NCBI GenBank assembly: GCA_002633005.1
Contig: NMRA01000171.1
Location: 711,093 to 775,092 of the forward strand
DNA length: 64,000 bases
Direction: 5' to 3'
Source: Phoronis australis
Lineage: Eukaryota > Animalia > Phoronida
Part shown: piece by piece, positions 1 to 21,900 of the stretch
Numbering within the stretch: position 1 is the first letter of the stretch
Layout: the number at the start of each line of letters is the position of its first letter
Program-made: the position numbers and the translations under genes
Notes under the pieces: model-generated
Databases searched by the model: none
The model's input: the letters and a program-made list of their open reading frames with translations, nothing else
What the model was told of the DNA's origin: nothing

Positions 1-1970
1 AATATTTACATCAAACAAACGCTGTTTTTCTAAGAGAGTAACTTTCTTTTTTTCCTAAATTTTAATAAAAACACATGACCACGCGACCTAGTTAAAGGCA
101 GATTAGTTTGAAGTCAAGAATCACATTGTACAAGGATTCTATTTACGGAAAAGATGTATTTTTAATGATTCAAAAATGTAGAGTATAGAATGACTAGCTA
201 CATACATAGCTTTTAGCTTTGTCGATCAGGTCGTACATACTCTGAATATCAATTTTTAGCCAAGTCTAATCTAGTGATGTCTGAAATTTACGGGATGAGG
301 GTTAAACAAACGGCAAACGGTCTGACGCCACAATTCCATCGGACGTGCCCAGGTCACATGGGTCGATGGGTATATGTTCGCACCCGTCGCACCCCTTGGC
401 AGACTTGTTTTGAAATGGTGCCAATAGCTTATGCCTTAGTTACCAGACTATGAGGCAGAGGAATGTCGACGGTAACCGGAAGAAGAGCCCAGCCTTTCCC
501 AAAACAAGTACGTATTATCTGATAAACGTAGCATGAGGCTAAAAATGGAATGATTGGTTCTGGGTCAGAGTAGTTTTGAGACCTGCATCCTATTTCAGCA
601 GGCACCCGACGCGAATAGTAAAAAAGTATCTCAGCTGGCATCCCAGTCAGGTGACTTTCTTTTTTGAAAACATAGACATCCAAAAATACCGCCATGATCA
701 CCTTATCAATTACGTAAAATACCACAGACCAGAAACAACGATGCTTTTTTGTGTGACCGAGAAATTTGCAGCATAAAACCCACCACCAGCTTACCTTTTC
801 AAAGCCAGGCTACATAATTATCATCTGAAAGCAGGGCCCAGACTTTATATAAGGCTACATATGGGCTGATACGCCGTCCACACTCAAGCCAGCAGGTGTC
901 GCAAATGAATGCTGATGAGGGGCAATTCGAAGGATGTTTACCCTACTTTCGGAGTGTCAGCCTACTTTTTGAAATATCTTCATAATCTCGTGCAAGGAAC
1001 AACATTGCTATTGATATTCAACATGTGATACATAAACCAGCCATAACTAAGTTGTTGACAACAAACATTAATTTCCTAACGCTTCCTAAGTTTTTAAAAG
1101 GTTTAGATATGTAACACTTCCAAGGACACGTATCGTTCTGACGTCCAACCTACGTTGGTTAGTACCAGTTCTAAACATTCCTCATTGGACTGCCAGTTGC
1201 AATTCTCTTTAAATCTTCGGCCCTAACAAAATTCAGCACGCATGAACACTGCACAACACAACATATATAGGAAAACCTTCGGAAATTGCAGTAAACTTGG
1301 CGTCAAGACAAAACGAGAATATTTTTCTCAAAAGAAACCACTTCCGGGGATATGAAAACACCTGGATTTCAAAGGATTCTCACAATATATTGGAAAATTG
1401 TCCTCGCTTGCTGTAATTGCAGCAATAATTCCATAGCAAATGATCACGACTGAGACAGAAGTCAAGGGGGGCTAGGTCACTTCCACCCGCTAAATGATAT
1501 GAGTAGTAGTTTTGTTTAGGTGCCCTATTTGGGAGGGTCTTCGGTAAAAGATCATAAGTGGAGGGTGAAAGACTAAAGGTGACGTGTGATTACTGACTTG
1601 TTATGGTGTTGTTTACGCCGGTGAATTGGAATCGGTGTTGTCAAAGACACGAAAGATACTACGCGATCAACATGGATATTACGAAGTTCGTGGTCATCCT
1701 GTAACTGAGACGATCAATGACGCGTAAAGATTGTCATGTAAGCCTGTTGTAATCGCCGACGGATACGGTCATGAATGTCACCAAACAGGCAACTGTCGCT
1801 GCACTGATATCGCACGAATTTTACTGACCGCATAAAAGAGTGCAGAACGACAATTTCTTCAGTGCACTGGACACGAAATATAGACGACATTCTAACTTGG
1901 CAATTACATTGTGGACAAAATTACATTTCCTGGATACTTTGAATCAAGACTTTGTAAACGCAAAGTTCGT

Positions 1971-2036
1971 TCAATCGATAATTTCGCATTGGGGAACTTT
2001 TTTGATCAACCAGTAGGTTTTCATAATTCCCTTTCC
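1971..2036 (-). CDS. rGC exon 23 (last coding exon)
   Basis: ttcag|[21 protein letters not shown], then TGA stop at 1973-1971. Confidence 0.93.
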   Translation of the reverse strand, partial: GKGIMKTYWLIKKVPQCEIID

Positions 2037-5000
2037 CTGAAACAGACACAATAGAAAAGTTAATTGATTTCTAAATAAAACACTCCACTTCGTCTATACT
2101 CTATAACGCGGGTGCTAAGTGTTATCAATGAGTGCAGAGGGTAACTAGTCAAGTATTTACACTGAAAAGACAATGATAAATGCTACGTTCCGTTGCTAGA
2201 CGTAAGACGCTGACCAAAAAGCAAGATCACGGAAGTCTTTGTGAGATAACGCCACGTATTAAAAGCGTCTACGGAATGCAGGCTGTCGTACCTTAATCTC
2301 CACGTCACCGCGTAGCTCGGTGACGTAACCGCCCAAGTTCTGCAGAGCTTTGTTAGTCGGTTCACTCATTTGGATTCGCATTCCTATAACGAGGGATACC
2401 GGTTACAGAAATGCAATAAGTGCTTACATCAAAGATACTATAAAATCTTTGCTTACATTCAGAGCGACTAACACAATTTTAATTGTTTGGTGAATTTCGA
2501 ACATAGACAATGTAAAACATGGCTGAAAGAAAGGGGTGGAACGGATATCATTTCAATGTGTTTGTAACAGGTTTTTGGCAGTTTATCTTTTTCAGTTTGC
2601 AAAACACGTGTCGTGACATCTTTTTACGGATTTTACGTTTCTGTCTCCTTTTTTATCCTAGCGTCCGCTTTTTTGGCGCAGAACTAGAAACACCATTAAA
2701 AGTCCCATATCCGGAATGTGTGAACTAGGACTTATGTTCAGAACTTTCCGGAAAGTCTTGAACCTACCTTCGCCAGTCGATTCCATACGAGATGCCGTAT
2801 TAATCGCATCCCCGAACAAACAATACTTGGGTCTTTTTAGTCCAATCACACCTGCCAGTAGAAAAATAATCATTACGATAGTTATAAGGAGAAAAGAGTG
2901 TTTTCATGTTTGCATTCGAACCTAAAACCACCGCGGTCGCAATCAAGTGCTCTGCTGGAGGAGTTACGTAAACTCTACTACAAATTCACCCACGCACCCA
3001 CGCCGGACTAGGCTAATAATCTCATCCTAAAATTGCGTTTTTCCGTGGTAAAACTGAAGATGTTCCTTTAATCAAGAAACTATTAAAACAAGTCCACGTA
3101 GGACACGACGCTAATTGAACAGAAACCTACAGAGGGAGCCTGTTCGAATGATTCAACGGAATAAAAGGAAGAGGAAATTAAATAATTGTAGAGGACATGG
3201 GAATTAAGATATAGGGAGCATAGAACAGTTCTCACAGGGGTTTGCCTATCAGAACACAAGTTAATGGACTTGTCACCCTTTCTTCACTCTGTCAAAAACT
3301 GCATGCAAAGAATGAAAAGTTCTGGGTCATTTTCCATCACAAGCCCAACAGATGAGCACAGAAACTTCATTATCTCTTGTAGTTTTGACCCTTAGTTGCA
3401 GTCCTACAGATAAGCAAGGTAGACTAAGAAAAGGGGCAAAAACGCAAAATCGGCGCTTTTCACCCTAAAACACCACTTCCTTGCCCACAGTCAACACTTG
3501 ATTCTGAAAGCAAATTCCCACCAACTACAAAAATGGCGTCTAAACGTACTGTCAACCAACTAGTTTTTTTGCAAATCTGGCTTATTTGAGGGTTACCTGA
3601 AATCGCAGACAATTTCTCAGTCGCTACCCAGCAAAGCACAATTGCAACAGCGGCGCCATCTTGAAGAAGAGTGTAGCCACAGCCGAGTAAGTGGTCGTTT
3701 GAATTCTCATCATGTTCACAAATACAAACAACCTACATTCACTTGGCCTACATGCAATACCTGACTAGAGAATGGCCCCAAGCCTGGCCTACCCCTAGAT
3801 TTTAAAATTTTAGCAGTGCAAATTGTCCACGGCAGCAGTATAACAGTACAGGGCCATCACAATGACTTATGTCCTCCATATCTCTCTTGAAACCACTGTG
3901 TTTAGGGTTAAAGAAAGGTAATCTGGTGGATTTTACTCCTACCAAATATCAGGAGACCAACCGTCAAGAGACGCAGTGAGACCCTCCATGCGGTTAGGGA
4001 GATATATCGGGTGTAGTTTATACCCCTTTAAAGGAAGAGTTATGAAAAATATATGCACCCAAAGGAAAATCAAATTGAGCTTATGATCCGATCAGTGCTG
4101 GTTTCAGTTGTATTTGGTTCAAAAAGGGGGGGGGGGCAGTCAGTTCCCGTCGACTGAATTGAAGCCATCAAATTTTGGAAGGGCCGGCAAGCGTTTTTTA
4201 CTCATGCATACTATGAATGCACCACAACAGTGAAATATTCGTAAATGATTTTGTTGGAGTAAGTAGCCTTTTGGATAGCAAAACAAAAGGAGACAGCAAT
4301 TTACTTATTTATCAATTTATTTCTACACCATCTCTTGTTTTTTGTACAAGTTATCAAATAATTAAAAAGCTATACCCGCGCAGCATGATCCAGTGTGTAT
4401 GCCTATTCTCACTGTCAATCTCTCTTGGGGGCAGTGTCGTATAGTGAACGAGGGTACAGCATTTAGGATTTCCAAGGCCATGTTAGCTATCTGTTGCAAG
4501 TGGTCTTCAATGTCCTCTGGTACTCCGCTGGCAACCATGTAAGCATCACCAATCGTCTCGACTTAATAGAAAACAAGACTTCAATCAATTACTTCATAAA
4601 ACAAAAATTCCAACCATTCACCCTGCCATCCCAGGACAAATATAATTAGTCGAATGCACACTGGTCTGGTCGTTGTTACGACAAAGTTGCGTTCTGTTGA
4701 GNATACAGGCCCAGTTCGACACCCAGTGAAGAGGACAGTTCGTCATCCAATGAACAGATCGGTGAGCCTAAGTTTGATAAGTTTATTGTGGACTTGTATT
4801 GGAGCTATTTGGAAGGTGCCAGGTGTGTGGCGAGGGAGTCACACGGCGGGATGTAAGCAGTTTGAGTGCTTAGATCACCCTTCAGTGGGAGTGTGTCGCG
4901 GGACACTCGGGCAAGTGGGACAGTTCTTCCTCTGTACGTGAGACGATAATGAGTAAACCCCAGTACGCAGCAACAGCGTGGCGTGTTGACTGACTCGTAA

Positions 5001-8000
5001 GCAAAAGCAAACAACGACCGAACTTATCACAACCGAGGTAGAGCAATGACTGAGTCGACTGCTCTCACAGTCAGACTATATGAACAGAAATTGGCGCGAA
5101 ATTCTTGCCTCCCAAAACGTCACTTCCGGAGTAGATGACGAGTAATTAATTAAATTACGAAAAGCAGTAAATAAGTGAAAAATATGTCTGGGATAATCAA
5201 CGAATCTTATTTTTGCTAAAACTAACATGAAAAAGGTTGCCTTCGCCTTTAAAACTTCCGTATGTTTACTTCGTGTTGGAATCCAAGCGCGTTTCATGTG
5301 TGCTGACTGCTGTGGTAGCAAATGCACTGATTTTACGAATTGAACGGCACAATTGTGAACCAAAGTTATTAAATCTAGTTAGTTTGTAAGTCAACACAAA
5401 CTTTGAAACGATCTTTGGGAGAATTTTTGTCTGACTTTTATGCTCGTAGTGGCGACATAGTAACGTCACTTGGTATTTTTCCCAGGTTGCCAAACGCAAT
5501 CTGAGGTCACCTGTAGGTCGTCAAATGGAGCACTATAAGTAATGATTTCTCGCTGCACATGGCTCACGAGTGTCCTACTCAACGGAACGCAGTCCACATG
5601 GGCTAAAACAAAATTAGCCGTGCTACGAATTTGAACATTGTTTCGTGCGCGAGTCCAAATTACTCAATAAGCGCGTAAGTCCGCGACGGATGCAAACCAA
5701 GGGACATCGCAAGAGCAGAAGGAGGGTGTCAAGTACAGAGCCGGAGTCATTGGGTCTTCAGAATAATTCAATGGCTGCAGGTATAAGCGAGCGAGACATT
5801 TTTTGCCAAGATTAAACTTTCACCTCTCGTACCCGACTCGTTGTTAGTTAACTAACACGTTTTAACAGAAGCCTTCGCATCAATGTGAAACAGGCCTCTG
5901 ATATGTTGAATTCTGAGCCATAGAACTTCCCCCAGTTCTGGAAATGAACCAAAATAAACAGTAACCGTTGCATTTGATTCATTTTACGTTCAGCGGTGTC
6001 ATCTGATTGGTCTGTAAGCCGGAAGTCGTCATCGAGAAGTAAATCAAGTGCAGCCGGTGCCCTTCGACGATAATATGTCTCGTGCGCTAACGCCGACTTG
6101 TTATGTCTCTGGGTACAATAGGAATGTGAAAGATCCTATTCTGAGTATTTGTTGATTGTAGCATGATAATGTACATGTTGAGACGTCGTAAAAAACAGCG
6201 ACTTCAAAGTCATGCTATGACTTAAAAATTGAAAAACAGCAAGTCAAAATTAAAACTCATCTTGTACACGTTATAGTTGTTGATAATATCATCAAACATG
6301 GTATACAAGTCGTTCAGGAAGTTGACAATCTGAAGAGGCGTCGAGCTGGAGGAGATACGGGTGAAGCCGACGATGTCACTGAAGAAGACTGTGACACGTG
6401 AGTGATATCGTGGTTCAACCTGCTGCCCGACTTTCAGACAATCGGCTATAGATCTGCAAATGCAAAATAATTCAATTGAAAAGTTTGATGCAAACTCGCT
6501 ATGCTCACGTCTTTTAAGCGCTGTGTAAGTATAGGTCAAGTTGCATATAGATGGTGTAGTCTAGCAAGGTCCAAGAAGAATATATATATATATATATGGT
6601 ATATTTCGAAACTCGCCATGTCTAGCCTTCACGAAGAAATAAAACGAAACCTTTTTGGTTCATATTTTACACAAATTTGACATATGTATTCCAAATGATC
6701 TAGTCAAAGGTTCCATGTAATGTATGGGTAACTCACCCATACTAAAAAGCCAGCACCAGTAAATAGTAACAATTATAGTGTTTGCGTGAACACGTTGTGC
6801 TAAAGGTTATGTAGGACTCCAGAAAAAATCCAAATTGGTCTAAATTTGGAACATTATATCGCAGAAAATGGCTAATCAAATGAAACTTTCAGATACTACC
6901 GTTATGCAGTGTTCTCTCCTGATAGGAATTGTGTTTAAATTGTTCCGCTTTTGCATGAAGGGCTATTAAAATATGATCTCATTAGCTCAAAAGTCAAATA
7001 AATGAAAAAGAAATCATATGTTAGGAAACTGCAACAGCTTTTTAATATCTGATCTTGAGCATCTTTATCAAATTTTAAAAATTTAGCCATGTTATTTATA
7101 CCGTTATGGTGCTACCAATATACCTTTGTTTTTGTTAAATTTCACTAAAAGACATGGCCACTTGCTCAATGGATAGAAGACTGGCAAAAATAAAAGAAAT
7201 CTAATTTTAAATGCTCAATCTACTTTCTAATAATATATACATTTACTCAGTTAAAATCCATAGTTTTAATGTGTTGCCTACTGCTTTTGTTACTTTTCTC
7301 CTAAAACGAGGGTGAGATGTTTTGATTCATCAAGAAGAAACAATTCAACAAGGATTACAATGTTGCTGTGTTTAATAACCCACCTTTCAACCGGAGGTGT
7401 GATAACGATAGCCAACAATTATCTTGTCCTAAGAGCTGTGTCCGAAAATCTAATTTTATTAAGGACTACTAAATCTCATTTTAGCTGATTTATAATCGTG
7501 ATAGAAAAACCATTTGACGTTAGCAAGTGAGCAGGGACAAGTTCCAAGAAAACTGACTTAGTTAAAGCAATTCGTAAATTTAAACAAATTTAAAGATAAA
7601 TTTCAACTTCTCTGAAGTCCGTTCGAAGAAAATGATCACAAGTTCGACTTAAGGTTTGTCTTCCGTTCGACTAACTTAGCGGACGTGGAAGTTTCAAAGT
7701 TTGGAAGTCGAGACAAAGCTTAGACTTAAGTGAAAAATTAACTTAAGTCAGTTTCTTGAAACGTGCCCATGATCTTTAGCAACATTCTGTACTTACTGCG
7801 GCAACATTTCGTATAGTAACGTTTCTGTTTTTCTTTTCTCCATAAATAGCTCGTTCGTGCGTTGTTCAACCAACTTTTCCAGGTTGTTCGCATATTTTTC
7901 CAGTAGTTCGATCATGTTCTCCACGATATTTCTCCTAAAATAAAACCAAAAATGAACACCTATTTAATAAAACATTAAAGCCCTTAACACGTATAACGAG

Positions 8001-9916
8001 GGATATTACTGTGCAGCTACGCACAGCGTGAGCGTACGTGTGCGAGTACGGGGCTACTACGCGAACTATCAAGAATGACTCGAGTCACCGTCCAATAAAA
8101 TGCTCCCTTAGTCGAACATCCTCTACAATAACGCCCTATTACTCCGCGTTCAAAACAGACTAGTCTTACTTTGGGGAAGAATGAATGAACCAAACTTTGG
8201 TTGCCGACAGTGGGCTACTCCAGGACTCTGCTTCATGGCTTTTACATGTAAGTCACTTTTCATGAAAAAAAACCTTTAGGAATGAGTCCAAACAACTATT
8301 TCTGAAAAACAATTAACTCTCGCTTGAGCAAAATTGCAAAGTCCCTGAAAATATACATATAACTGTTTGTTACAGAAATTATTCACATTAATTATTTCTA
8401 GACTGTGACGCGCTCATATTTACGTCATCAGCAATTATGAAGTAGAAGTGCAAGACCAAATTTCTGTCTTTAGTCTTAATTAACTTTAGTCTTAATTAAC
8501 TTTAGTCTTAATTAACTTTAGTCTTAATTAACTTTTCATGAAACGGACCCCTGCAATTAACACAAAGTATTAGCAACATGCAATATGAATAAAGGAATGA
8601 ATAAATAATTCAATACACAAATTATTATTGTTACCTTCCCTGGTTGATTTTCTTTATAGTACCACTTATAACGGCAAAGGTTGGTCTGGTCTGGGGGTAC
8701 TCCCGCCAACACAGTTTCATCAGTTCGATGACTTCCATGTAGTTTTCGTTCTTCACCTTCACTTCTGAGTTGACGCGAGTGCTGGGGCGGAAACCCTCGT
8801 TACGAATTCGCCGCATGGTTTCTAATGAGAAATAACCACAACGCTGATGATGCTGATACGTGACCAATGATAATAATAGTGATGATTATATTGATATTAA
8901 TGAAGATAATAATGATGGGATACCGATAATAATATTAGCACCCGTTCATGAAACTAGGCCCGACAAGTAGCAGCGTGTTGCCGCCAAGTGTGCTCTCTAG
9001 ACTTTTTCATTTTAATGATCAGTTGTTAGGTACGGTGACCCGCAATTTTTTTTTAATTGCTTCGCAAATAAATTACGGTACATATTTAGCCCAGAAAGCA
9101 ATCCTTTATATTTAGGATTTTAAAGATGCATAGTCTCATTAAATTGTGAATATGCAAATGAAGTAGTAATTTACAAACAACCGCGGGTCTCCCAGTCAGC
9201 CGGAAACCACCCACGAGCCAGTTACTATTACAATCTCGCGAGACTATTTTTATGTAAATAAGTATGGCGGACGAACACCGGATGTCGTCCACCGACAACT
9301 GAGGTCTGGCTACTCCGCCGACACTTCTCATGGTGACCACAACGAAAGCATTCGTTCAATAATTCCATTTTGCCGTCACCTTGCACAGTCTTCGACATCA
9401 TGCCATTTGCGTCTCTGTTATTGCAAATTCGATGTATTTGCACACCCAGTCCTTCTTTATTCAGCCCATTCAACAACAGTGCAACGACTTGTCAAATAGT
9501 CTAAAGAAGGCTGACGGTTATGATGACGTCAGACACAAACTCATCAGTTACCTGTGGATGTGGTCATCATACACTGTAGCTGTCCCTCCCTTCGTTTTCA
9601 GTCATTTCGTTGTATATACCATACAAAAGTTTTAATTTATTTTTAATTCAGTTTGTAAATTCAATCTGTAAATATTCATTTTAATTTAATGTAACTTAAT
9701 TTAATCTATCTTAGTTTATTTAATTTATTCTTTTTGCTGTGAGAAGACCATGCTGTATATTAGCCTTTGGCTAAAGAATGTTTTAATATCTATTATATTT
9801 TATCCTCTATGAATAAAGATTTATTACTATTATTATTATTATTTATTGTTATTATTATTATTCATTATTATTATTTATTATTATTTATTATTATTATTTA
9901 TTATTATTATTTATTA

Positions 9917-9967
<51 letters not shown>

Positions 9968-12900
9968 CTTCTCGTCCACATTTGTTAGGATGACACCGAA
10001 ATCCCTGGGAAACTCCCACAGAATTGTCCTTACCTAATAAAACAAGGCACAGTTTTTATTATTTGTTTATTTCAATATCAAATAACGATTGCCTAATATA
10101 TGGAATTTCCAGGGTTTTTATATGTTCATACTTGTTTTTATTTATTTATTTACAAATTGTTTCTTTTCCTGATTGTACTTGTACATACGATCTGCAGAAA
10201 GTCACTAGGTGGCGCTTGCTACAAATTTAAATATTCAGTTTTAATGAGACATAGCATCTTTTACTATAAAATAATGACTTACTAAGTGTAACACATTAAT
10301 GAGCAAAAACACCATAAGTAAAGAAAACAAAAAATAAGAACAAAATCACACGGTAATAAAGGAGAACACGTTCAGAAAACATTATACAAAAACATAAACT
10401 AAGCAAAACAAAAAGCTCAGGGTAGATATTAATACAGTTGCCTATCATGACATTTAAAAATACAATCACAAAGATTTATAAGTAATAGAACATCACAGTA
10501 GTGGTTCAAATTGCGACAACCATATAATAAGAAAACTAGTTTTTCAAGCCTATTACTAAGATTTTGAAAATATAACCAGATATGATCGTTGGATTGCAGG
10601 TTGCGAAAGAGCTGTTCACGCTCAGCGTTATAGACAGGGCATGAGAGCAAGTCGTGGGCATCACTATTAATTGTCCGACATTGTATTTGACATTTTAGTT
10701 AAATTACTTTTTTATTTTTCGTGTTTCGCCTGGGTGGAAATAATTTACTCCTAGGTGAGAATGAATTCATCTAAGTGGAGATATTTTCTACCCGGGTGTA
10801 AACATTTTCAAGCTGGGTGGAAATATTTTGAACCTATGTGGAAATAATTTCAACATTTTCAACCCCAGCGGAAATGATATACACCTATGTTCATATGATT
10901 TCCACCACATCCACGTGAAAATTATTTCCACATGGGTTGAAATTATTTCCTCCCGGGATGAAATTATTTATAGCAGGGTGGAAAATATTTACGCGTAGGT
11001 GAAATCATTCTCATCTGTGTGTTAATTATTTACACCTAGGTGAAAAAAGAAAACAAAAAAGTAATTTACCTAAAATGGTGATATTTTCGGACCACTGATA
11101 GTTTATCAGTAACTTTCATTTCTTGTCGTATAATGATCATATTTGATGAAATTGACTTATTTCTTTCATTTTCCCACAGAACCCCATTTTAAAATCCCAA
11201 AAAAGAATTTGGAAACCTGTCACGAAGAAGCCCGCGAATAGCATCTAAAATTTCGATGTTTTTGCAAACACGATATGTACGCTGATTCTGACCCGGAAGT
11301 CTTTGTCAGATCCCGAGATGTGCAGTCTGACTTTTAACCAAAACAACTACCTCACCGTGGCGATGTGGGTAACACAGCGATTGGTTACGTGACATTGGTA
11401 ATGTTTTATAAGCATCGCTTAAAAACAACGATTGCTTACGTTTCATAAGTTCATTAATTAATTGATTTGAACGTATAGAATTAATGTGTTCCGTGACAAG
11501 GCAACGGAAAGTAGAAAACCTAAAATAGGCAGAAAATAAGCAGACTGAAGTCATTGCCTGCCTACCTTACTGGACGTGATGTCTGAGCAATGAGCTCAAT
11601 TTAGCTCAATGCTTTAAGTAATCACGACTTTCAAAAACACACACCGGAGTTTTCCGATCAAGCGCCCATCACCCATGTGAACGTTTCGGAGATGGGCATT
11701 TTGTTCTGAACAAAAAAACGACGGGTGGTGTTTAGAGCACATTCCCTCAAATTGCATGTTATCACATATACCTTTTCATTTTGCGACCCCTGAAATGACC
11801 GTTTTCCGTTTTGTGCAAAAGTTGGCTGGCATCTTAGGTCGACAAATGACGCTTAATTTGTTTAATGCACCCACGCAACCAACACAGTTAAATCGTTTTG
11901 GCATTTCTACCTCGTGACTGAGTATGGACGTTTGTGAAGCATCACGCAAGATCCAATTCCTTTTCGTTCAAAACATGACTTATAATCTGCGTTTGCAAAC
12001 TACATCCCACTCACCCCTGATCACACACAGACAGCGCATTACCATATTCTTTGTGTATCCAACACAATAAACCTATTTGTTACTAATGACTTGGGTAAAG
12101 CATCTCACCTATGGTATTCTTGGTGTAGCAAGGTCTGTAAACACTATTCTCATGGCATGGAATGGCGAAAGGATTCTACTGTGCTCTACTGTCTTATTAA
12201 CTATTAGAAATGACATTTGGTTAAGTTTCACAATCTAGGGTTTGCCCAACATAAGGTAGCCATCCTCTTTTGAAGTGGTGGAAACCTCGAACTGCCGAAT
12301 CATGATGCGATTTTCAAAATCTAACATTCTCAAAGGAAACTCTTTTAAGTGTTGATCGAGGTAACATGAACAAGCCTTTTATATACTTACAACACGCTAA
12401 TCAACCGCCATGTACTTACCACAGTGAAATTTGTCAATTTCACAGATGTTAGGTTGCGTCAACATCACAGCAAAATCAAGATTCCGAAAAGTGCGTTGGG
12501 ATTAGCGTCATCTCGGAAACAAAAAGACTAACAAGCACTTTATCGGAAATGCCCGGTGAGGTATATACCTTCTGCGGGTCCGCTGTCGCCAAAGACTCCC
12601 TCTCTGAAGACGATCTCATGAAGAATAATCCCGAAGCTGTACACGTCTCCAGCCTGAGACCCCCTTTCAGGCTTTTCTGTGCGAAAAAATTCCGGAGCAG
12701 TCCACAACTGGTCTGAAAATAAAAGTTTTGAGTTCTGGGCACAAATAACCCGACATTGAGAAAAACAACGCGTGAACAATCTTCACCAGTCAATTAGGAG
12801 CATCCGCTTAACCTATGGTGTGAAACAAACAGAAATAAAATAACGAGGGTTAACGAAAGTGAGAGGTGTAGCATCTAGTATAGACATCTTCCAGATAAAG

Positions 12901-15900
12901 AAAACCATATTTTTCTATATTGAGGAAAATGGCACCTATGATAGTGTACGCATTACAGTGTCGCACGTGCTGGGCAATATTATAGCCAAGCTGGATGAGA
13001 GAAGACACACAGTACATAACCACAAAATGTTATCGTGCCATACTTCGGTGAAAACGTTCACCATTGCCATCAGTTCAAAATGTGGCGATTGGAGCGTTTT
13101 GTTTGATTTATTTAAACACTAAAGTATTATTCACCACAAGATCAAAATCGGCAAAGCGCATTTTTATTGTTTTGCAAAACGTTATATTTGTCTCATGCGA
13201 CGCTGACTACAATCTTTCAAAGAGCCACCGTCCGAGAGGAGTAGCGAGAACGGAAACGATTCAAAAGGCGCACAATTTCACGTGTGAGCGTCAGCCTAGT
13301 GCACATGTCCTGGTTTGCACGTTTGTCCCAAAACAAATGATCTGGGAAAGAGCAGTAAACGTATATTGTTTTACTTGAATTAGTCACAAAACACAAACTT
13401 GTGAAGAATGCTTCGATTTAATACGTCGTTATTGTACTAAGATATCCGATTACTATAACGTCCAACAAAAGCTCACTTAAAATGCTTAAGGAATCTAAGC
13501 CTGATTTTTTGTCGCCATTGAAGCTTGGTTGATGCAATTTCCGGATTTTAGTCGAAGTGCGCGCACCAATGAAAAGAAATTTTTTATCAGAGACAATGGC
13601 TATGCATTTGACCAAAATACTTTTTTTTTCTTTCGAAATTTTAATAAAAATATCGAAGTGTCTGATCGACAGTCATCAAAAACGCTGGCTTTCGGTTGAC
13701 GGTAAAAATAGTCTAATCAGACGTTATTCAAGTCACCTTTTGGCAAAAAAGGTTCCTTAACAATTTGAACGTGACCCGATCCCGTCCCAGTTTTTTTTTG
13801 ACCAAGCTACTACGTAAGTAGAACAGCAAGTGAACGGGGAAACAAACCACCTAGCCTTTTACCACTAAAAACAATACGATCACCGACACCTTTTGAGTAG
13901 TTTTCTAATGTCTCATTTCAAATTGAAACAGTTAGTTGACTTTATAAAAACAGAGTGCGACCGGATAGCTACTGTTTCATCAGGGTCAATTTGCTCGTGG
14001 TATTGTGATATTAAAACACGCTATGGGACCAAACATAAAGTCTACTCCAAAGGTGGTGTTGAAATTAACTTGAAGTAAGCATAATAAACTTGAAAGGCGG
14101 GAACTGGAACGCCTGCGCTACATGACAGCCGACGATATCGATTTTTGAACGCGAGCGTAGCTCAGCTGCCCCAAAGAACTAGAAAAGTGTGCGACTGTCG
14201 AGTGCGCTTGAATGGACCGCTCGTACAACATATCTATGAGGTATTTAATGACAAATACCGTAAATGTCCGTGTACGATAGAGCGCTTACAACAGATTATT
14301 TGTTAATTTCACATCTATTGGCGTTTATTGGAGATCCGGCGTTTATTATCTATCAGACCAGAAAAATCACCGTTGCTAATCGTTCGCTCCAAGGTCGTGA
14401 TAAGTTGCTACATGTATCTCACGCATATCACATGATTTATAAAATATTATACGTGTATGTGCTCCACTTTTGGCACTCGTTGTTTCGTTGTTATGTATAT
14501 AGCATGCAAACCGGCGTACATTAGAGACCGGTTTCTACGTTTATTAATTTCAGGGTACCAAATTGAATTGCTTCTATTGGGAACCCGATTTATTACTTGG
14601 CGGAATTCTTCGAATTCCGACAAGTATGTTGCTCTGTCGTCATTTTTTTTTGTTCGCACTCTACAGGTCGCAATTTTCGTCTTATTTTCACGAAATTTGC
14701 ACACAACGTGTAGATCAGAAAGTCCTGGAAGCCTATTGTTTTTGGTCATGATCAAATACAAAATGGCGGACGTGGCGGCCATTTTGTATCCGATTTCACA
14801 GTCAAATGCTCGTAGAGGCCGCATTTTTCAACGTACATGGCTGAAATTCGGTACGATTATAGTAAAACGCATGTGCTACAAGTGTGCAGAAAATCTTTGA
14901 CTTCCGGTCAAAGATGGCGGAAATATTGGAAGTGGCGCATGCGCACCCCGAAATATGGCCAAAAACGTTTTCTCATGTAGAGGGCGCATTTGCGAACCAA
15001 TCACTTTCAAACTGCTCACGTGTTTGTTGAGTTTAATAAGCTTTTATAAAAGTTTATTGAACCGGAAGTCACTTTCAAGATGGCGGCTGTGGCGCATGTT
15101 CATATTAGAATGTTAGAGGTACAAGTCGGCGGGTGCAGTTAGATTCCAGAAATCAAATAAAAATGCAACGCCCTGGAACAAATTTTTCCGAAAATATGAC
15201 CAATCATACCTTTTTCTGCCGACCAACATTGACCACAGGCGAACACGTTTTTGGTCTTTGTTGTTGGAGAGGACTTATGACAAAGTTTCGCCCGGGTACA
15301 GGGGTAGGAGAATTTCATGTCAGGTGGGCACCACTTCCCCGTATATTTACATTAGATGCTCCCCAGCCTAAATTTTACTCAAGTCGGGGGGGGGGGGCAA
15401 TTGCCTCTAACCCCTACCTAATAGACCTACGAGTCCGTGGTGACTATAAACATTCCGAAATTAGCTAAATGTTGGCTGTCTAAATCAAATCCAAGGATTT
15501 GTACAATATGCTGTTAAGTCCATGCAAAAACCATTCCACGAAAAGACATGAATTAATAATAAAACAAACAGCTCCATCACCCATCATCCAATCGCATATT
15601 TAAGATGTCACACGGAGGGGGGGGGTGCAATTTAAACTTTTGAACACAAATGTTCGCGTGAATTCTAAAAAATAACATGTCGTAGGCGTTTTGTTCTTCG
15701 TTCTTTTCGGGATCAAGTAGGTTGGGCCGGGCCTCCTGTGAATTCAAACATGATCTTCGTCAAATTGGTGCGTTTACCTGAAGAAAGTTAAATTTACTGC
15801 TCTCCAGAAAACACCAAAAACAGCTCAAATCCACCAGATGAAAGTCAATAAGTGCATAATGTTACTTCTTGGTGAATCAAAGTAAAGTCATCACAAGACT

Positions 15901-18900
15901 ATACTCCTGGTAACTCTGGAAGAGATTGTAGAAGCAAGAAATAACAGCGTTTTTTGCATAAGCGAGGCCTACCGTGGTACTCATCTCCGCAATGTTGCTT
16001 CAAAGATATGATCTCTGTTGGCCCAAAGTCTGTGACCTTAAGTACCCATCGATTGTCTACAACACAGTTTGAACTCTTCAATCGCCCATGAGATTTCAGT
16101 TTGGAGTTGTGCAAGTATGACATCCCCTGTGAATATTCAAATGTAAACAAAACAAAAACCATTAGTGCCAGGAAATATTCTAAATAATTGTGCACGAGTA
16201 ATAACATATTAAAGTATATCAAAACAATCCTTATCATGTTATTTTATTTCCAATCAGCACATGAGTCATAGAATAACGTGGCCATTTTACGTACTATATT
16301 TTAAAAATGCTTAAATTAAAACTTTCACTTACAATTGCGTTCATATTATTATCATCACCGTTATTAATAATATTATCATTACCGCTACTGTTGCTGTTAC
16401 TCAAGCTGCTGCTGCTGGTGCTGATGGTGGTGGTGCTGCTGGTGCTGCTACTGCTGCTGCTGCTGCTGCTACTACTACTATCACTACTACTATTACTACT
16501 GCTACCTTTCCTTTTAAAGTTATAACAGCACACAAATAATTTTAAAACCGACTTAAGGATCTAGAAACCAGTCTCAAGCCTCTAGCATTATAGTCTAGGG
16601 GGATGTAAGAGAGGCGTGCTCTACTACTAGTCCACAGTTCCTCCTCGAGGAAGCGTTGCTTTTACAAAGATGGGACGTGTTCGAAAAGGAACAAACTCTG
16701 TTCATCTGATCGTTAATAAGAGGATTTCGAAACTGAAGAAACTTTACCGTCACAACGCAACTGTCTGATCTTAATATCGTCAAGAGGAAAGAAATGAATT
16801 GAAACTTGTTCGTAAAGTTCATTAGTCACATTTTCAACAAATCAATGACTGTCACTACAGTGTACTAATTCATTAAGGATACTAGCCAAATAGATGAGGA
16901 CACAAGGGGCCTTATACGTGCATGACCATCGGACAAATAAACAAATAAATAAAGACTCTTACCGCCGTTAAATCACTTATGAAAGAGCATCTGAAAATCC
17001 AATCCAGCGAAATGTCCGTATTGTCTAAAATTTCCTGAAAATGGAAATGGATGCTAATCAACAGAGTAATATAGATCTACAACAATAGAAAATGAGGTTT
17101 AAACGAATTAGCTACGAATTTATAAACAAGTCTTCATACCTTTTGATTCAGGCCACTAGCATGTATTATCAAGAAATTGATGCCAAGCTGTTATTGGTCG
17201 GATTGGACTGATCTCTGGAAAACTGACAGTTCGTCCATGCATAATACCCGGCACAAATAAGTTGCTTAGTAACCCTCCAAGTAAAAATGAATACATGGCG
17301 TTCTTACCTCAAGGCTGCCCTTTTCACAGAATGCGAAAACCAGACAAAAATTCGGGGATTGAAGACTAGCGCCGACAAAGGAGTTGATATTATCGTGCAC
17401 CATATCGCGCATCTGGCAAAGAAGAAAAAGCTTAACTGATTTAACCCAACGACGTATGACTTGGGCATTCAAACATACTAAATAAAGTATATAGTTGTCA
17501 TTTTACAAACACTAAAATTTACGCGAAAATTTGAAAACGGCAATGCAGTTTCGTTTATCAATAAGAACAATGAGACATATCGCAACCATAAAGGTGGTAT
17601 TCATAATCGTGGTATTTTCGAAGGGTGACCTTACTACAGCAATGAAGCTAATAAGGACGGTCTTTTGGTACGGTTGACACTCCCCCGGCTAAACTACCAC
17701 AGCTGGTCCTACTAGTGTGGGTAGTTTATACTGCGATGGATAGTACAGCTGAATATTTGGCGTCCCGTGGGCTCAAAGCGTAGTCGGGATCTCAATCGGT
17801 GATGTGCCGGGCGTAAACCATGGCGACAGGTACACATTACTGACCCAATGTGCGTAAACGTCTTTTCCGGAGACCATAGACTTTCTTCGGGAAATCTACG
17901 GTATTTTGGGGTGAAACTCTTGGTTTTTCATATGCACTTGATAAAATCATCTGATTGACTCAACGGAGGTGAACCTCCGTTGGCTTTACGTGAGGACACG
18001 CTAGTGAATGAGTAGAATGCTCTTTTGATCGTTCACCAATTTTTATTAACAACGAGACTAATTATAAAGTTTGGAGAAAACCCGGAAGAATATCATAAAA
18101 TTTTCATCAGCTTCCCAGGATAACGATCACGAGAAATAACTTTTTCTTTGGGGACTGAGTGCGTTTCACAGAGTATAGATGATGTGATGTCTAGGTGCCA
18201 ACAACACTGCCCATTAATGGAAATTATTTTCTCACCAGCTGCAGTTCCACAAGATGATGTCGTTTCAGCTCAAAGCGCGTGCAGTTGAGCATGTGCATGA
18301 TGACTTTACTTCCTTTGTACACAAAGCAATTATTATAGAGTCTATCACTGTGAATGGAAACAGCTGATGACGCAAAGTTCCCGTCATTTACACTAGCTTT
18401 AGACATCGATGTTCTCCATTTCTTAAAAAGAAGAAAGGCTCCATTAGGAATGTCCAGTCATGAAGACGCAGGTGTTTAGTCACACATTCATTCATAATAA
18501 AATGAAGGCATGAAGAGTAACAACAACAGTAACACATTAAATATCACTCAGCAACTTGATACTACCTAGCATCGCTTTTTTGTACTCTGAGTACACGAGC
18601 TACATTGGAGAAAACATTGCGGAGCTTTTCTCAAATGCTCTGTGAAAGCCCTTGGGTCCCCCCGCATTGGAAGGGTCGGTTAGGAGGGATGAACCTCAAA
18701 TTTCGGGGGACAGGTGTCGTCTCGAGTGGACATTGTGTCCTCAGGTGGGCATTTTGCCATTTCACATATTGTGCATCTCTGCTGGGTAATTTGGAGGTTC
18801 TGAGGCATCGTCTCGAGTATTACCAATTACGAAGGGGGGGGGGGGGGGGTNNNNNNNNNNNNNNNNNNNNNNNNNNNNNNNNNNNNNNNNNNNNNNNNNN

Positions 18901-21900
18901 NNNNNNNNNNNNNNNNNNNNNNNNNNNNNNNNNNNNNNNNNNNNNNNNNNNNNNNNNNNNNNNNNNNNNNNNNNNNNNNNNNNNNNNNNNNNNNNNNNNN
19001 NNNNNNNNNNNNNNNNNNNNNNNNNNNNNNNNNNNNNNNNNNNNNNNNNNNNNNNNNNNNNNNNNNNNNAAATCCGCCACTGCTTCACTACTCGAGGATA
19101 ACAAAATCCAAGTCAAAACCTTCATAACTGTCCATTGTGTGAGTCGGTGATGGTTTCAATTTTGTTGTTGATAACGAAAATATATCCCTGTCAGGGTTAC
19201 CGCATGAGACCCATTCTGTGAGCTAAACAGGGCGAAACGCGATTCTAGAAGAAAATAATCGGTTATCGTATCACTCAAAGAAAAGCTGCGCCGCCGGTAG
19301 TGGTTATATATGCCGCTATTGTGCCTTTGGTTATTGTTTCAGTACTTTGACGACACAGATTAAGGTAAAATATCACCAATACCTGACATAACAAATATTC
19401 GCCAAATTTGACATTTGATCAGATATTGCTGTGAAAGCCCCCAATGCTTCAAGACAAGTTATGGTATGTACTTTACAATGGCAAATCATGTATTCGGTAA
19501 TACGTATCGCTTATGAAAATAATAGAATTGAAAAAGTTCCCTTTTCCGTCATATTCACGGGGGTCAACCTTCTCACACGGCCTGCATGGTGTTTTCACTA
19601 AAATTGCTGTTGAGGATGAAGCAATACTGTACAGCTTGTAAACAAATAAATGCGTTAATGAGAAAAGGACGCTGTTAATGAAAATGCACGGACGGACCGT
19701 ACGGGAGGAAGATTGGCAGCCCTGTAATAGCGTCCTAAATTGGTGGGAGTAATTTTACAATATTTCTTTTTGGTGTTCTCACATTGAATTCATACCGTAG
19801 CTAAAAGGTGCCATAAAGCTCACGTTTCCTTGTTTACACGTTCAAATGATACGCGCGTAATTTTTATTCTTTTTGTAACGTTTCGCTCCTATGTGTCTCT
19901 TACTCGAGATACAGGTACATAACAAATCACTGTCTTTTTGGAATACGGTATGCGTAACTAAAACAGATCTAATTTACAAGTGCATCGTCTGCAGACATCC
20001 CAAAAATTTGCACATATGAGCTACTACCGTCATGTGGATGACCATATAACTTAAATGATATAAATGCCGATTCCTCGCAGGCAGTAAAACACGGGAAAAT
20101 ACCTTAGATGGTAACCTTTTTAATTTTTCGCTTACTCCGTCAGTTTTCCACTGGTGAATTACTAGTAATTGGTGCGTAGGAATCCGCCAATCAGAAGGAA
20201 TCCAGGCAGTACGACACACGTGACCAGTACGACACACGTGACCGGTGCGGAAGCGATAATTTCCCCTTACATTTTTTCGATATTTACCCAAACTTTTAAC
20301 ATTGTCATTTGTTTATTATCCATCAAAACTAACATTGTGGACATTTTGGGACTTTTTGTAGGCTACTTTATACTTTATGAAAAGTTACAAAAAAGCTTAA
20401 CAGGTATTAGGCACATTTGTGTCCGAAAGATGAACATCAAGTCGTCTATAGGGCCCAAACACTCATCACCAACAAAATTATCAAGAATTCCGAAATCATG
20501 CCAAACTACTATCAAATGGCCCGTACGAATGGAATACGATAAACAGATTTATTGAGTTTCATGAGTGGCAACACAAGTCTCTCCTTAAATTTTTTGTGTG
20601 CATATTTTTGTTATTTCAAGTCTAATATCAGAAAGATAATTACCTTTCTGTTAATAAACTATTGGATTAGTGACCATGTATGAACAAACACAGATTTATA
20701 CAGTCCGTCTAAATTACCTGAGTTTTAAATGAAACAACGGCGTCGCAGTCGACATGCCAGCTTCTCTTCAGGATTTCTGCCTCAAACCGCTTTTGTCTAT
20801 GAAAAGAAGTTGAGGAAAGTGCGTGAAACATCAATTTCACATTCTGGTGTGCAAGCCGTGGCAAGTTGACAAGGACGAAACTCATTTTTTGCCATTCACG
20901 AACATTTTCAGACGTTGCGCATTAATGCATGAAGCATTTTTTAAAATACCCCACCGCACAACAGTGGCAATTCAGCGACATGATGGTCGCAAAGAATTTG
21001 TTTTCTCTGCATTAAATCAAAAGAATACAAAAACGCGTAACGCTGTCCACGCTATCGTACAGTGACTCAGTTAAGACATTGAAGGAAAAAAGGCTATTCC
21101 AAAAGCACATTACTAATCTGCCCGGGTGGATTACTAATGTGCCCAGTCGGATCTCGGTAGTAATCAGTAATCTGCCCGGGCGCGATAGCATTTTTTTTCT
21201 AAAACGTCCTAGCGGAGTCACCATATGTGTTAAGGCTAATATTATTGACACAAAATGGAGTACGACGGACCTTCATATGGTAAGAAGTAGCCAAAATATA
21301 AAAGACGGAGCAGAAATGGGCGGGGATGAGATGGGAAGAACGGGACATCTTTTCATTTTTCCACCATTTAAAAAGACGTTCAAATTAATATGTTCTACAA
21401 AAATAAAAATGATTAATCTACTATCATATTGCGTTCCTTAAGCTGTGCTAAGTCGTTGTCGTGTCGCATGAAAAACGTTAGCTTAGAATTCACAGAACTC
21501 CCGATGCACGCATTCAGGAAATCACAGTTGATTATAAAAGCTCCCGAAAACGAGGCACGTTTCCACAAATATTCAACGCAACAAAAGGTGATAGTAATCA
21601 CTTCAACTTTTGATGGAGTACTAATAAACGCACTACTTTCACAACCCCGTCCTTCCCATTTCTTTCCTTTTTGTTCTCATTTTAGGTCCGTCCTCCCCAT
21701 CCACAGCCCGTACCTTTTAATACATGATCAAGCCTAAACAGGAAGAAAGTATTAATGAGCATGTACTGTGGCCTTGCGTGAAATAGCTTTTCGAACATCT
21801 GACTAAAATAGCTAAACAAGCACCTGTGGTGATAAGGGTGCCTTAGAAGTTAATGTCTATATTTCAAAAGAGATGTTTCTGGCGTTCCAAAATGTTTGTG

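What the first reader, a model, noticed from the sequence alone, without database searches (positions are those of the whole stretch)
4563..6260. Apparent AT-AA intron with a U2-type donor inside the catalytic YK|VETIGD motif
Seen: exon 19 ends ...GTG TAC AAG and is followed by ATGAGT, a perfect GTGAGT consensus except for +1 A. Exon 20 begins GTC GAG ACG ATT GGT GAT right after a pyrimidine tract ending ttctattAA. Both terminal G residues are A at the phase-0 position that restores the conserved YKVETIGD; the other 21 introns are GT-AG. The donor is not the U12 ATATCCTT type. Established: first and last intron nucleotides interact, rare U2-type AT-AC introns exist, and compensating terminal pairs have been shown in yeast suppressor work. 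Inference: a double compensated non-canonical intron, which two independent sequencing errors would be unlikely to produce. Alternative: a canonical but weak slid junction (TGA|GTTTTA at 6257/6256 to taAG|TC at 4562/4561) giving YKMIETIGD, a one-residue insertion next to the guanine-specificity Glu. A third option is a splice-dead allele.
Basis: partly seen in the sequence, partly recalled or inferred. Interest (0 to 1): 0.85.

Follow-up and report, generated by a model that had tools for sequence, protein, structure and literature searches.

The report
Ordinary-type intron with AT-AA ends
One intron of an intact guanylyl cyclase receptor gene starts with AT and ends with AA instead of the near-universal GT and AG, is cut out at exactly those ends in five RNA reads from one sequencing run, and is likely removed by the ordinary (major) splicing machinery through pairing of its two end adenines.

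Summary
Intron 19 (6260-4563, minus strand) of a 23-exon, 1055-aa receptor guanylyl cyclase reads AT...AA; the other 21 introns are GT-AG. DNA contigs from two runs match the window at both ends, so neither base is an assembly error. One of three raw RNA runs holds 5 reads joined exactly at 4562/6261; the slid GT-AG junction is not listed. Apart from +1, the donor is the third strongest of 22; no U12 signals were found. Homologues have GT or GC here (149 of 152 read-through proteins, none AT), so AT-AA is derived. Best reading (0.66): the major spliceosome uses an A-A terminal pair. Rivals: A-to-I editing of one or both ends (0.15; weak long-range helices lie near both), or a GT-AG allele in the RNA animal (0.08). 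In the surveys I could check, typed natural AT-AA introns are U12-type. The scan noted a U2-type AT-AC intron on other DNA; no note shown to me describes an AT-AA intron with a U2-type donor. Limits: one run, five reads, different animals for RNA and DNA, no close relative.

The parts
1971..61469 (-). Receptor (membrane) guanylyl cyclase gene, 23 coding exons, 1055 aa: ligand-binding domain, predicted membrane helix, kinase-homology domain, cyclase domain
   Evidence: 35-43% identity to animal receptor cyclases
6261..6453 (-). Exon 19, ends in Tyr-Lys (TAC AAG)
4563..6260 (-). Intron 19, 1698 nt, phase 0, AT...AA termini
   Evidence: DNA contigs; RNA joint 4562/6261 skipping 1698 nt
6255..6263 (-). 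5' splice site AAG|ATGAGT, major-type except A at +1
   Evidence: 7.8 bits without +1, third of 22 donors; U1 complementarity 7.5 of 11, canonical range 6-9 (U1 consensus recalled)
4563..4582 (-). Pyrimidine tract and TAA| 3' splice site
   Evidence: 7.1 bits without -1, sixth of 22 acceptors
4584..4588 (-). Candidate major-type branch point TTGAT, adenine at -23 (second candidate CTAAT at 4649-4645, adenine at -84); predicted, not mapped
   Evidence: motif YTRAY recalled
4376..4562 (-). Exon 20, starts Val-Glu-Thr-Ile-Gly-Asp
6255..6256 (-). Cryptic GT of the slid junction; no use listed
4562..4563 (-). AG one base downstream of the used acceptor (AAG|TC), bypassed in the joined reads; AGs ending at 4592 and 4579 are bypassed too
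4703..5252 (.). Very high-copy repeat inside intron 19, 140 nt upstream of the acceptor
   Evidence: summed contig depth 10^4 to 10^5 against 6-43 on unique DNA
7593..7610 (-). Stretch of intron 18 that could pair with the donor region 6263-6246 (18 contiguous pairs, 5 of them G-U); predicted, bears on the editing rival
1707..1723 (-). Stretch 250 nt behind the stop codon that could pair with exon 20 bases 4559-4543 (17 pairs, 4 of them G-U); predicted, bears on the editing rival

Best explanation
Intron 19 has AT-AA ends and is cut out exactly at them in the RNA reads seen, likely by the major (U2) spliceosome, with the first and last adenines predicted to pair in place of the usual G-G pair. 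Shown: the two adenines are in the DNA, and the joined form restores the conserved motif. Inferred steps: (1) U1 and U6 recognise the donor through positions -3 to -1 and +2 to +6, which match consensus, so A at +1 is tolerated; (2) U2 branches at the adenine at -23; (3) in the second step the lariat's A(+1) cannot pair well with a terminal G, so the AG one base downstream is passed over and TAA is chosen; (4) the state arose from an ancestral GT-AG intron by two G-to-A changes, with either single change alone probably a weak or null allele in this divergent family member.
For: Joint 4562/6261, 1698 nt skipped, no letters that fit on either side, 5 reads at 5 starts, up to 53 letters on the shorter side, all in the orientation expected for minus-strand RNA (run X7). 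No microhomology (0 and 0), which argues against template switching. No second contig at 90% or more lies over exon 20 or the 3' part of exon 19, so the reads are not from a close paralogue. Donor third of 22 and acceptor sixth of 22 outside the odd base; no U12 donor motif, best U12 branch match 4 mismatches in 9. X1 gives a second haplotype over 6009-6480 with no difference listed at 6260, so both copies in the DNA animal likely start with AT. Homologous donors read V (GT) in 142 and A (GC) in 7 of 152 read-through proteins, M or I (AT) in 0. Literature: U2-type introns with A at +1 exist (24 AT-AC among 608,562 U2-type introns; PMC1557818); A at +1 blocks the second step unless the last base suits it (PMC4299874); an A-A terminal pair 'weakly supports splicing' (Scadden and Smith 1995 as relayed by PMC8283771). 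Recalled, paper not held: in yeast a G-to-A change at +1 activates cryptic UAC and UAA acceptors.
Against: Only 1 of 3 raw RNA runs and none of the X9 contigs show the joint (X6 0, X8 0, X9 0); X6 has reads on exon 20 and 3 reads for each of the next two junctions but none here. The tool flags the joint 'between: not known', as it does the canonical joint of intron 21. RNA and DNA come from different samples. Which spliceosome acts was not tested. Predicted helices near both adenines stand out from shuffles, and both changes are G-to-A, the one kind ADAR can read back. Reviews call A-C the normal or only substitute for G-G, and PMC8283771 notes that the cryo-EM geometry does not fit A-A. No U2-like AT-AA among 25 human AT-AA junctions. 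No close relative was found to test conservation (best single-exon identity 66-68%).
Confidence: 0.66

Rival explanations
1. A-to-I editing turns one or both terminal adenines into inosine, read as G, so the major spliceosome sees a normal or half-normal intron.
For: Both deviations are A for G. Single-end cases are known in human (4 GT-AA, 3 AT-AG; PMC4176328). The donor adenine can sit in an 18-pair contiguous helix with 7610-7593: longest of 22 donors (next 17), 0 of 200 shuffles reach 18. Exon 20 bases +4 to +20 can form a 17-pair helix with 1723-1707: -24.5 kcal/mol, 0 of 30 shuffles as low; best duplex -33.8, 0 of 40 shuffles. The acceptor adenine has favourable neighbours (5' A, 3' G; PMC11120146). 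Editing would also ease the two-step origin.
Against: The donor helix is weak (-14.9 kcal/mol, 3 of 30 shuffles as low; best duplex 21st of 22 donors, 19 of 40 shuffles as low), its partner is partly tied up in its own hairpin, and neither helix appears in the minimum-energy folds of 7800-6100 or 4750-1600. The donor adenine has a 5' G, the least favoured neighbour. The acceptor adenine lies outside the 17-pair helix; the longest helix that includes it is 12 pairs (92 of 200 shuffles reach that). Canonical acceptor 6 has a stronger helix (19 pairs, -31.4). I tried three statistics on 44 sites, so the outliers are post hoc. No doubly edited intron is in the table I saw.
Confidence: 0.15
2. AT-AA is an allele of the sequenced animal, perhaps poorly spliced, and the animal behind run X7 carries GT-AG.
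For: X7 is another sample and study than X1-X4. No RNA read is known to cover either intron end; 494 rows of table 3 were not shown. Only one haplotype is visible at the acceptor.
Against: Two haplotypes about 1.3% apart (6 letters and a 4-base insertion in 472 nt) both likely carry AT (5 of the 6 differences are listed, none at 6260; the one unlisted T>C row is tallied in all four runs, including X5, which covers only repeats). It needs two rare splice-site changes on one haplotype, with the frame otherwise intact over 1055 codons.
Confidence: 0.08
3. The minor (U12) spliceosome removes it, as it does the known AT-AA introns.
For: Typed natural AT-AA introns in the surveys seen are U12-type: 8 in PMC1557818, 823 of conserved animal minor introns in PMC10639083, 20 of 25 human AT-AA junctions in PMC4176328.
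Against: No RTATCCT donor anywhere in the intron; best branch-site match has 4 mismatches in 9 (motifs recalled). Homologous donors show many different second residues after V, whereas a phase-0 U12 donor would always read V-S-F/L.
Confidence: 0.04
4. The slid GT-AG junction (6257 to 4561) is the main product and gives YKMIETIGD.
For: It is canonical and in frame. Two other introns of the model use AAG acceptors (introns 3 and 11).
Against: Not listed in any of 4 runs, while the AT-AA joint is (listing needs 3 reads in one run, so 1-2 reads could be hidden). Donor score -10.1 bits, U1 match 5 of 11. 208 of 208 joined homologues have one residue, V, between K and E; none has an insertion.
Confidence: 0.03

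Closest known systems
U2-type AT-AC introns ('AT-AC type II': SCN4A, SCN5A and other sodium-channel genes, TAF2, SYCP2; yeast RPL30)
   Same: A at +1 in an otherwise strong major-type donor, pyrimidine tract, no U12 signals (definition in PMC1557818; RPL30 in PMC11585973; SYCP2 and TAF2 in PMC8280824).
   Different: Last base is A, not C. U2 dependence not tested here. No conservation shown; homologues are GT or GC.
U12-type AT-AA introns (RASGRP4, MSH3, PIGB and others)
   Same: Same terminal dinucleotides, which shows that an A-A terminal pair can support exon ligation.
   Different: They carry the U12 donor and branch motifs; this intron has neither.
[quoted passage not shown] 1994; Scadden and Smith 1995)
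   Same: A at +1 rescued by a change at -1; A-A weakly active (seen only through PMC8283771 and PMC1557818; Chanfreau and Scadden not held; Parker and Siliciano not looked up).
   Different: Those are laboratory mutants with low efficiency; this is a natural intron inside a catalytic motif, and it yields in-frame mRNA.
Splice sites made by A-to-I editing (ADARB1, NRK, HOOK3, COG8: GT-AA; C14orf37: AT-AG)
   Same: Genomic A where G is needed.
   Different: One end only in the table seen, described as alternative sites (PMC4176328). Here both ends differ, the intron must go for an intact enzyme, and the helix evidence is weak.
Non-canonical U2 introns of Fritillaria borealis
   Same: The major spliceosome can process non-GT-AG ends (PMC13326754 introduction).
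   Different: There under 10% of introns follow GT-AG; here 21 of 22 introns in the gene do.

Membership tests
U2-type (major) intron | U1/U6-type 5' splice site consensus | tested here: met
   Matches at -3 to -1 and +2 to +6; third of 22 donors without +1
U2-type (major) intron | Pyrimidine tract and branch adenine some 18-40 nt from the end | tested here: met
   Acceptor sixth of 22; TTGAT adenine at -23; branch point predicted only
U2-type (major) intron | GT-AG or GC-AG termini | tested here: not met
   AT-AA in window and in DNA contigs
U2-type (major) intron | Splicing depends on U1/U2 snRNPs | not testable with these tools
   Needs snRNA block
U2-type AT-AC (type II) | A at +1 with good major-type donor match | tested here: met
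   definition
U2-type AT-AC (type II) | AC at the 3' end | tested here: not met
   AA: it likely works like this class but is not a member
U2-type AT-AC (type II) | Borders conserved in orthologues | tested here: inconclusive
   No close orthologue found; 0 of 152 distant read-through proteins start with AT; metagenome scan found no second case
U12-type AT-AA intron | RTATCCTT-type donor | tested here: not met
   ATGAGT; motif absent from the intron
U12-type AT-AA intron | TTCCTTAAC-type branch site close to the 3' end | tested here: not met
   Best match 4 mismatches in 9 in the last 60 nt
Editing-created splice site | Genomic A where G is required | tested here: met
   Both ends
Editing-created splice site | Target adenine within a stable RNA duplex | tested here: inconclusive
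   Donor: long but weak helix; acceptor: strong helix beside, not over, the adenine; neither in global folds
Editing-created splice site | A-to-G reads in unspliced RNA | not testable with these tools
   Near-zero depth on unique intron bins; no row at 6260 or 4563 among the 40 of 534 rows shown
Receptor guanylyl cyclase | Ligand-binding, kinase-homology and cyclase domains in one open frame | tested here: met
   PF01094, PF07714 and PF00211 above cut-off on single exons; open frame; membrane helix judged by eye
Receptor guanylyl cyclase | Catalytic and guanine-specificity motifs | tested here: met
   [21 protein letters not shown] and NTASRME present (roles recalled). Two unusual residues: PKY where 139 of 141 homologues have R, and GDA where 84 of 84 have T. 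Activity untested.

The most novel reading that the evidence does not exclude
A constitutive intron whose two ends are both switched on by RNA editing: ADAR, guided by a repeat in intron 18 and by a stretch behind the stop codon, rewrites A(+1) and A(-1) to inosine, so that making this cyclase depends on double editing.
Probability: 0.09. Interest if true: 0.92.

Novelty: new variant of a known kind. Interest (0 to 1): 0.64.

Why it matters
If the major spliceosome removes this intron unedited, it is a natural example of an A-A terminal pair in a U2-type intron, a pairing that I could trace only to weak laboratory suppressors and to minor introns. It offers a ready test of first-last base selection: a normal AG lies one base from the AA that is used, so single-base changes at +1 should move the cut. 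That bears on the disagreement, raised in PMC8283771, between genetic data and the cryo-EM geometry of the terminal pair. It also shows a two-step path across a splicing fitness valley at a deeply conserved intron position. In practice, aligners and gene finders limited to GT-AG, GC-AG and AT-AC would likely slide this junction or break the gene.

Tried and rejected
No genome is held for this window, so paralogues and other introns of the organism could not be surveyed. The run search listed no RNA holder; the RNA runs came as additions by species label. X9 contigs cover no exon and X8 has almost no exon depth: no evidence either way. X5 (organism B, share 0.07) covers only repeats, so it is no orthologue. 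A metagenome scan for YAA before the VETIGDAYM codons gave 2 loci, both the same unrelated, frameshifted cyclase fragment with a CAA codon and no upstream YK exon; the collection likely holds little animal DNA, so the blank says little. Rfam on 1-9000: 0 matches. Inverted-repeat scan of 2800-7900: none of the 25 longest of 135 pairs covers either intron end. Donor-acceptor duplex is unremarkable (-18.1; range -11.4 to -29.0). Assembly error rejected. Close paralogue as read source rejected. Template switching unlikely (about 0.02 left). Single-end shifts all break the frame. Earlier-finding look-ups by genome and by relatives returned nothing; the word search on cyclase introns gave 8 unrelated notes.
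Full report
OBSERVATION. On the minus strand exon 19 ends TAC AAG at 6261, the intron begins ATGAGT at 6260 and ends ttctattAA at 4563, and exon 20 begins GTC GAG at 4562. Homology and hand-placed boundaries give a 23-exon gene from 61469 to 1971 with an open frame of 1055 codons; 21 of 22 introns are GT-AG and intron 19 is AT-AA, phase 0. Single exons match PF01094, PF07714 and PF00211 above cut-off, and the cyclase profile runs from position 53 at the end of exon 19 to 54 at the start of exon 20. The protein is an animal-type receptor guanylyl cyclase, 35-43% identical to its best fetched relatives.

ARE THE BASES REAL? I laid 3 of the 4 DNA runs of sample S1 and the one run of organism B on 4340-6480. 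Contigs of X2 and X3 span the acceptor (4340-4698, 4340-4633) and the donor (6009-6480, both) with 0 other letters. These runs may be the source of the window, so they exclude an assembly error but add no second animal. X1 gives a different haplotype over 6009-6480 (6 other letters and a 4-base insertion); 5 of the 6 are listed and none is at 6260. Eleven rows were not shown. Fully supported rows of lower depth were kept, and the one unlisted T>C row is tallied in all four runs, including X5, which covers only repeats; so the second haplotype likely has AT too. This is an inference. X1's acceptor contig has 1 unlisted difference in 4340-4701. Depth over exon 20 and the 3' part of exon 19 comes from one contig per run, apart from one short extra piece in X3, so no close paralogue competes for reads.

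IS IT SPLICED THERE? Three raw RNA runs (samples S3-S5, 18-19% of each read) and one contig set were laid on 1900-8000. Run X7 has 5 reads at 5 starts that join 4562 to 6261, skipping 1698 nt, with ends AT..AA on the minus strand, no letters that fit on either side and up to 53 letters on the shorter side. Both mates of one fragment may be counted, so this may be as few as three molecules. X6, X8 and X9 have 0. The slid junction 4561/6257 is not listed; listing needs 3 reads in one run. As controls, X6 shows introns 20 and 21 at the modelled ends with 3 reads each, and X7 shows neither, so coverage is thin and gaps mean little. Exon reads lie in one orientation, that expected for minus-strand RNA. 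Unique intron bins have 0 to 0.16 depth in X7 against 7.8 on exon 20, so retention looks low, though out-of-frame forms may be degraded. The joint carries the flag 'between: not known', as does the canonical intron 21 joint, and no inserted letters are listed for it. There is no microhomology.

SIGNALS. With a matrix from the 21 canonical introns, the donor without +1 scores 7.8 bits (third of 22) and the acceptor without -1 scores 7.1 (sixth of 22); the slid donor scores -10.1. No U12 donor motif occurs and the best U12 branch match has 4 mismatches in 9; major-type branch candidates lie at -23 and -84 (consensus motifs recalled). AGs at -29, -16 and +1 are bypassed. The one at +1 matters most, since the model has AAG acceptors at two other introns.

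HOMOLOGUES. 107 of the 120 listed hits (510 found) hold YKVETIGD; the other 13 run in from the intron. Across all fetched proteins, 208 of 208 joined motifs have V alone between K and E. Proteins called from unspliced contigs show the donor: of 255 new proteins (120 of 252 listed; 150 of 6795 listed), 102 are joined, 1 did not align and 152 read through; the next residue is V in 142, A in 7, L, G and D in 1 each, and M or I in none. The set is redundant and distant, but it shows a conserved GT (sometimes GC) donor at this position, so AT-AA is the derived state.

MECHANISM. Best reading: the major spliceosome accepts A at +1 because the rest of the donor is near-optimal, and in the second step the first and last adenines pair in place of G-G, which selects TAA over the adjacent AG. 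A at +1 blocks the second step in fungi (PMC4299874, passages); the first and last bases pair without Watson-Crick geometry (PMC11585973, passages); A-C rescues and A-A 'weakly supports splicing' (PMC8283771, passages, relaying Scadden and Smith 1995). I recall that Chanfreau et al. 1994 saw cryptic UAC and UAA acceptors activated by G-to-A at +1; that paper, Scadden and Smith, Dietrich 2005 and Wu and Krainer 1997 are not held, so this is unchecked. Two unusual residues in the cyclase core (K for R in 139 of 141 homologues, A for T in 84 of 84) fit a divergent family member in which a weak intermediate allele could persist; that is inference.

MAIN RIVAL. Both changes are G-to-A, which ADAR can read back, and single-end cases exist in human (PMC4176328, passages). 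Results in favour: the donor adenine can lie in an 18-pair helix with 7610-7593, the longest of 22 donors and beyond 200 shuffles, and exon 20 bases +4 to +20 can pair with 1723-1707 beyond all shuffles. Results against: the donor helix is weak by energy (3 of 30 and 19 of 40 shuffles as low), the donor adenine has the least favoured 5' neighbour (PMC11120146, passages) and is unpaired in the local fold (0.01), the acceptor adenine is outside the strong helix, a canonical acceptor has a stronger helix, and neither helix forms in global folds. Three statistics were tried on 44 sites. I give editing 0.15, a GT-AG allele in the RNA animal 0.08, U12 splicing 0.04, sliding 0.03.

WHAT IS KNOWN. Sheth et al. 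(PMC1557818; passages and section 20) list 24 U2-type AT-AC introns and 8 AT-AA introns, all 8 U12-type. Larue and Roy (PMC10639083; passages and one supplement passage) give AT-AA as the commonest non-canonical minor end pair. In Parada's supplement (file 3, first 30 of 47 hits, which include all 25 of the 'Total' sheet; file 1 not searchable) 20 AT-AA junctions are typed U12 and 5 non-U2/U12, none U2-like; their typing could mislabel a U2-type case and I could not check. The Physarum preprint (passages; supplements closed) and PMC8280824 (passages) treat AT-AA as U12-type; the preprint's figure of U2-type non-canonical ends was not visible. PMC7072748 has no 'AT-AA' in text or held supplement. 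PMC11347168 (passages) and PMC13326754 (passages and introduction) have no such case in what I saw. Searches: 73 papers, 25 listed; 6; 12; 'AU-AA', 0; 1; 8 papers with 'U2-type' and 'AT-AA'; 4 read in passages, 4 seen as listings. I found no natural U2-type AT-AA intron there; subscription journals and unseen supplements may hold one.

VERDICT. A real, derived AT-AA intron with major-type signals and RNA support from one run. It likely works like the U2-type AT-AC class but fails that class's AC feature and the U12 features. New variant of a known kind; interest 0.64.

Noticed in passing
window 4703-5252, 5276-5563 and about 6000-6040: Intron 19 holds a very high-copy repeat (summed contig depth 10^4 to 10^5 against 6-43) and two lower-copy ones; the single N at 4702 sits at the repeat's edge. 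Organism B shares the repeat.
   Followed up: partly
window 7520-7790: MITE-like element in intron 18 with long terminal inverted arms, transcribed from other copies.
   Followed up: partly
window 2826-2816 region of exon 21 (protein 983-992): PKYCLFGDA where homologues have PRYCLFGDT: K for R (139 of 141 have R, none K) and A for T (84 of 84 have T); the R is recalled as part of the guanine pocket.
   Followed up: partly
homologues P0123-P0377: 7 of 152 read-through proteins have A after YK, that is a GC donor, several times the usual 0.4-0.9%; this donor position may tolerate odd bases (redundant set).
   Followed up: partly
window 36950-36932 and 39293-39275: Start of exon 7 can form a 19-pair helix (-31.4 kcal/mol, 0 of 30 shuffles) with a stretch of intron 4.
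   Followed up: no
window 38365-39000 and 57477-58225: Two inverted copies of one element about 19 kb apart in introns 4 and 1, 76-93% complementary pieces; could form long double-stranded pre-mRNA.
   Followed up: no
window 32000-35700 and 45400-47300: Family of repeats with about 433-nt spacing in introns 7 and 2.
   Followed up: no
window 18851-19069: 219-base assembly gap in intron 11; single Ns at 31177 and 44467.
   Followed up: no
L001:5634-6030 and L002:5634-6030: Identical truncated, frameshifted cyclase fragment in two metagenome contigs; not related to this intron.
   Followed up: yes
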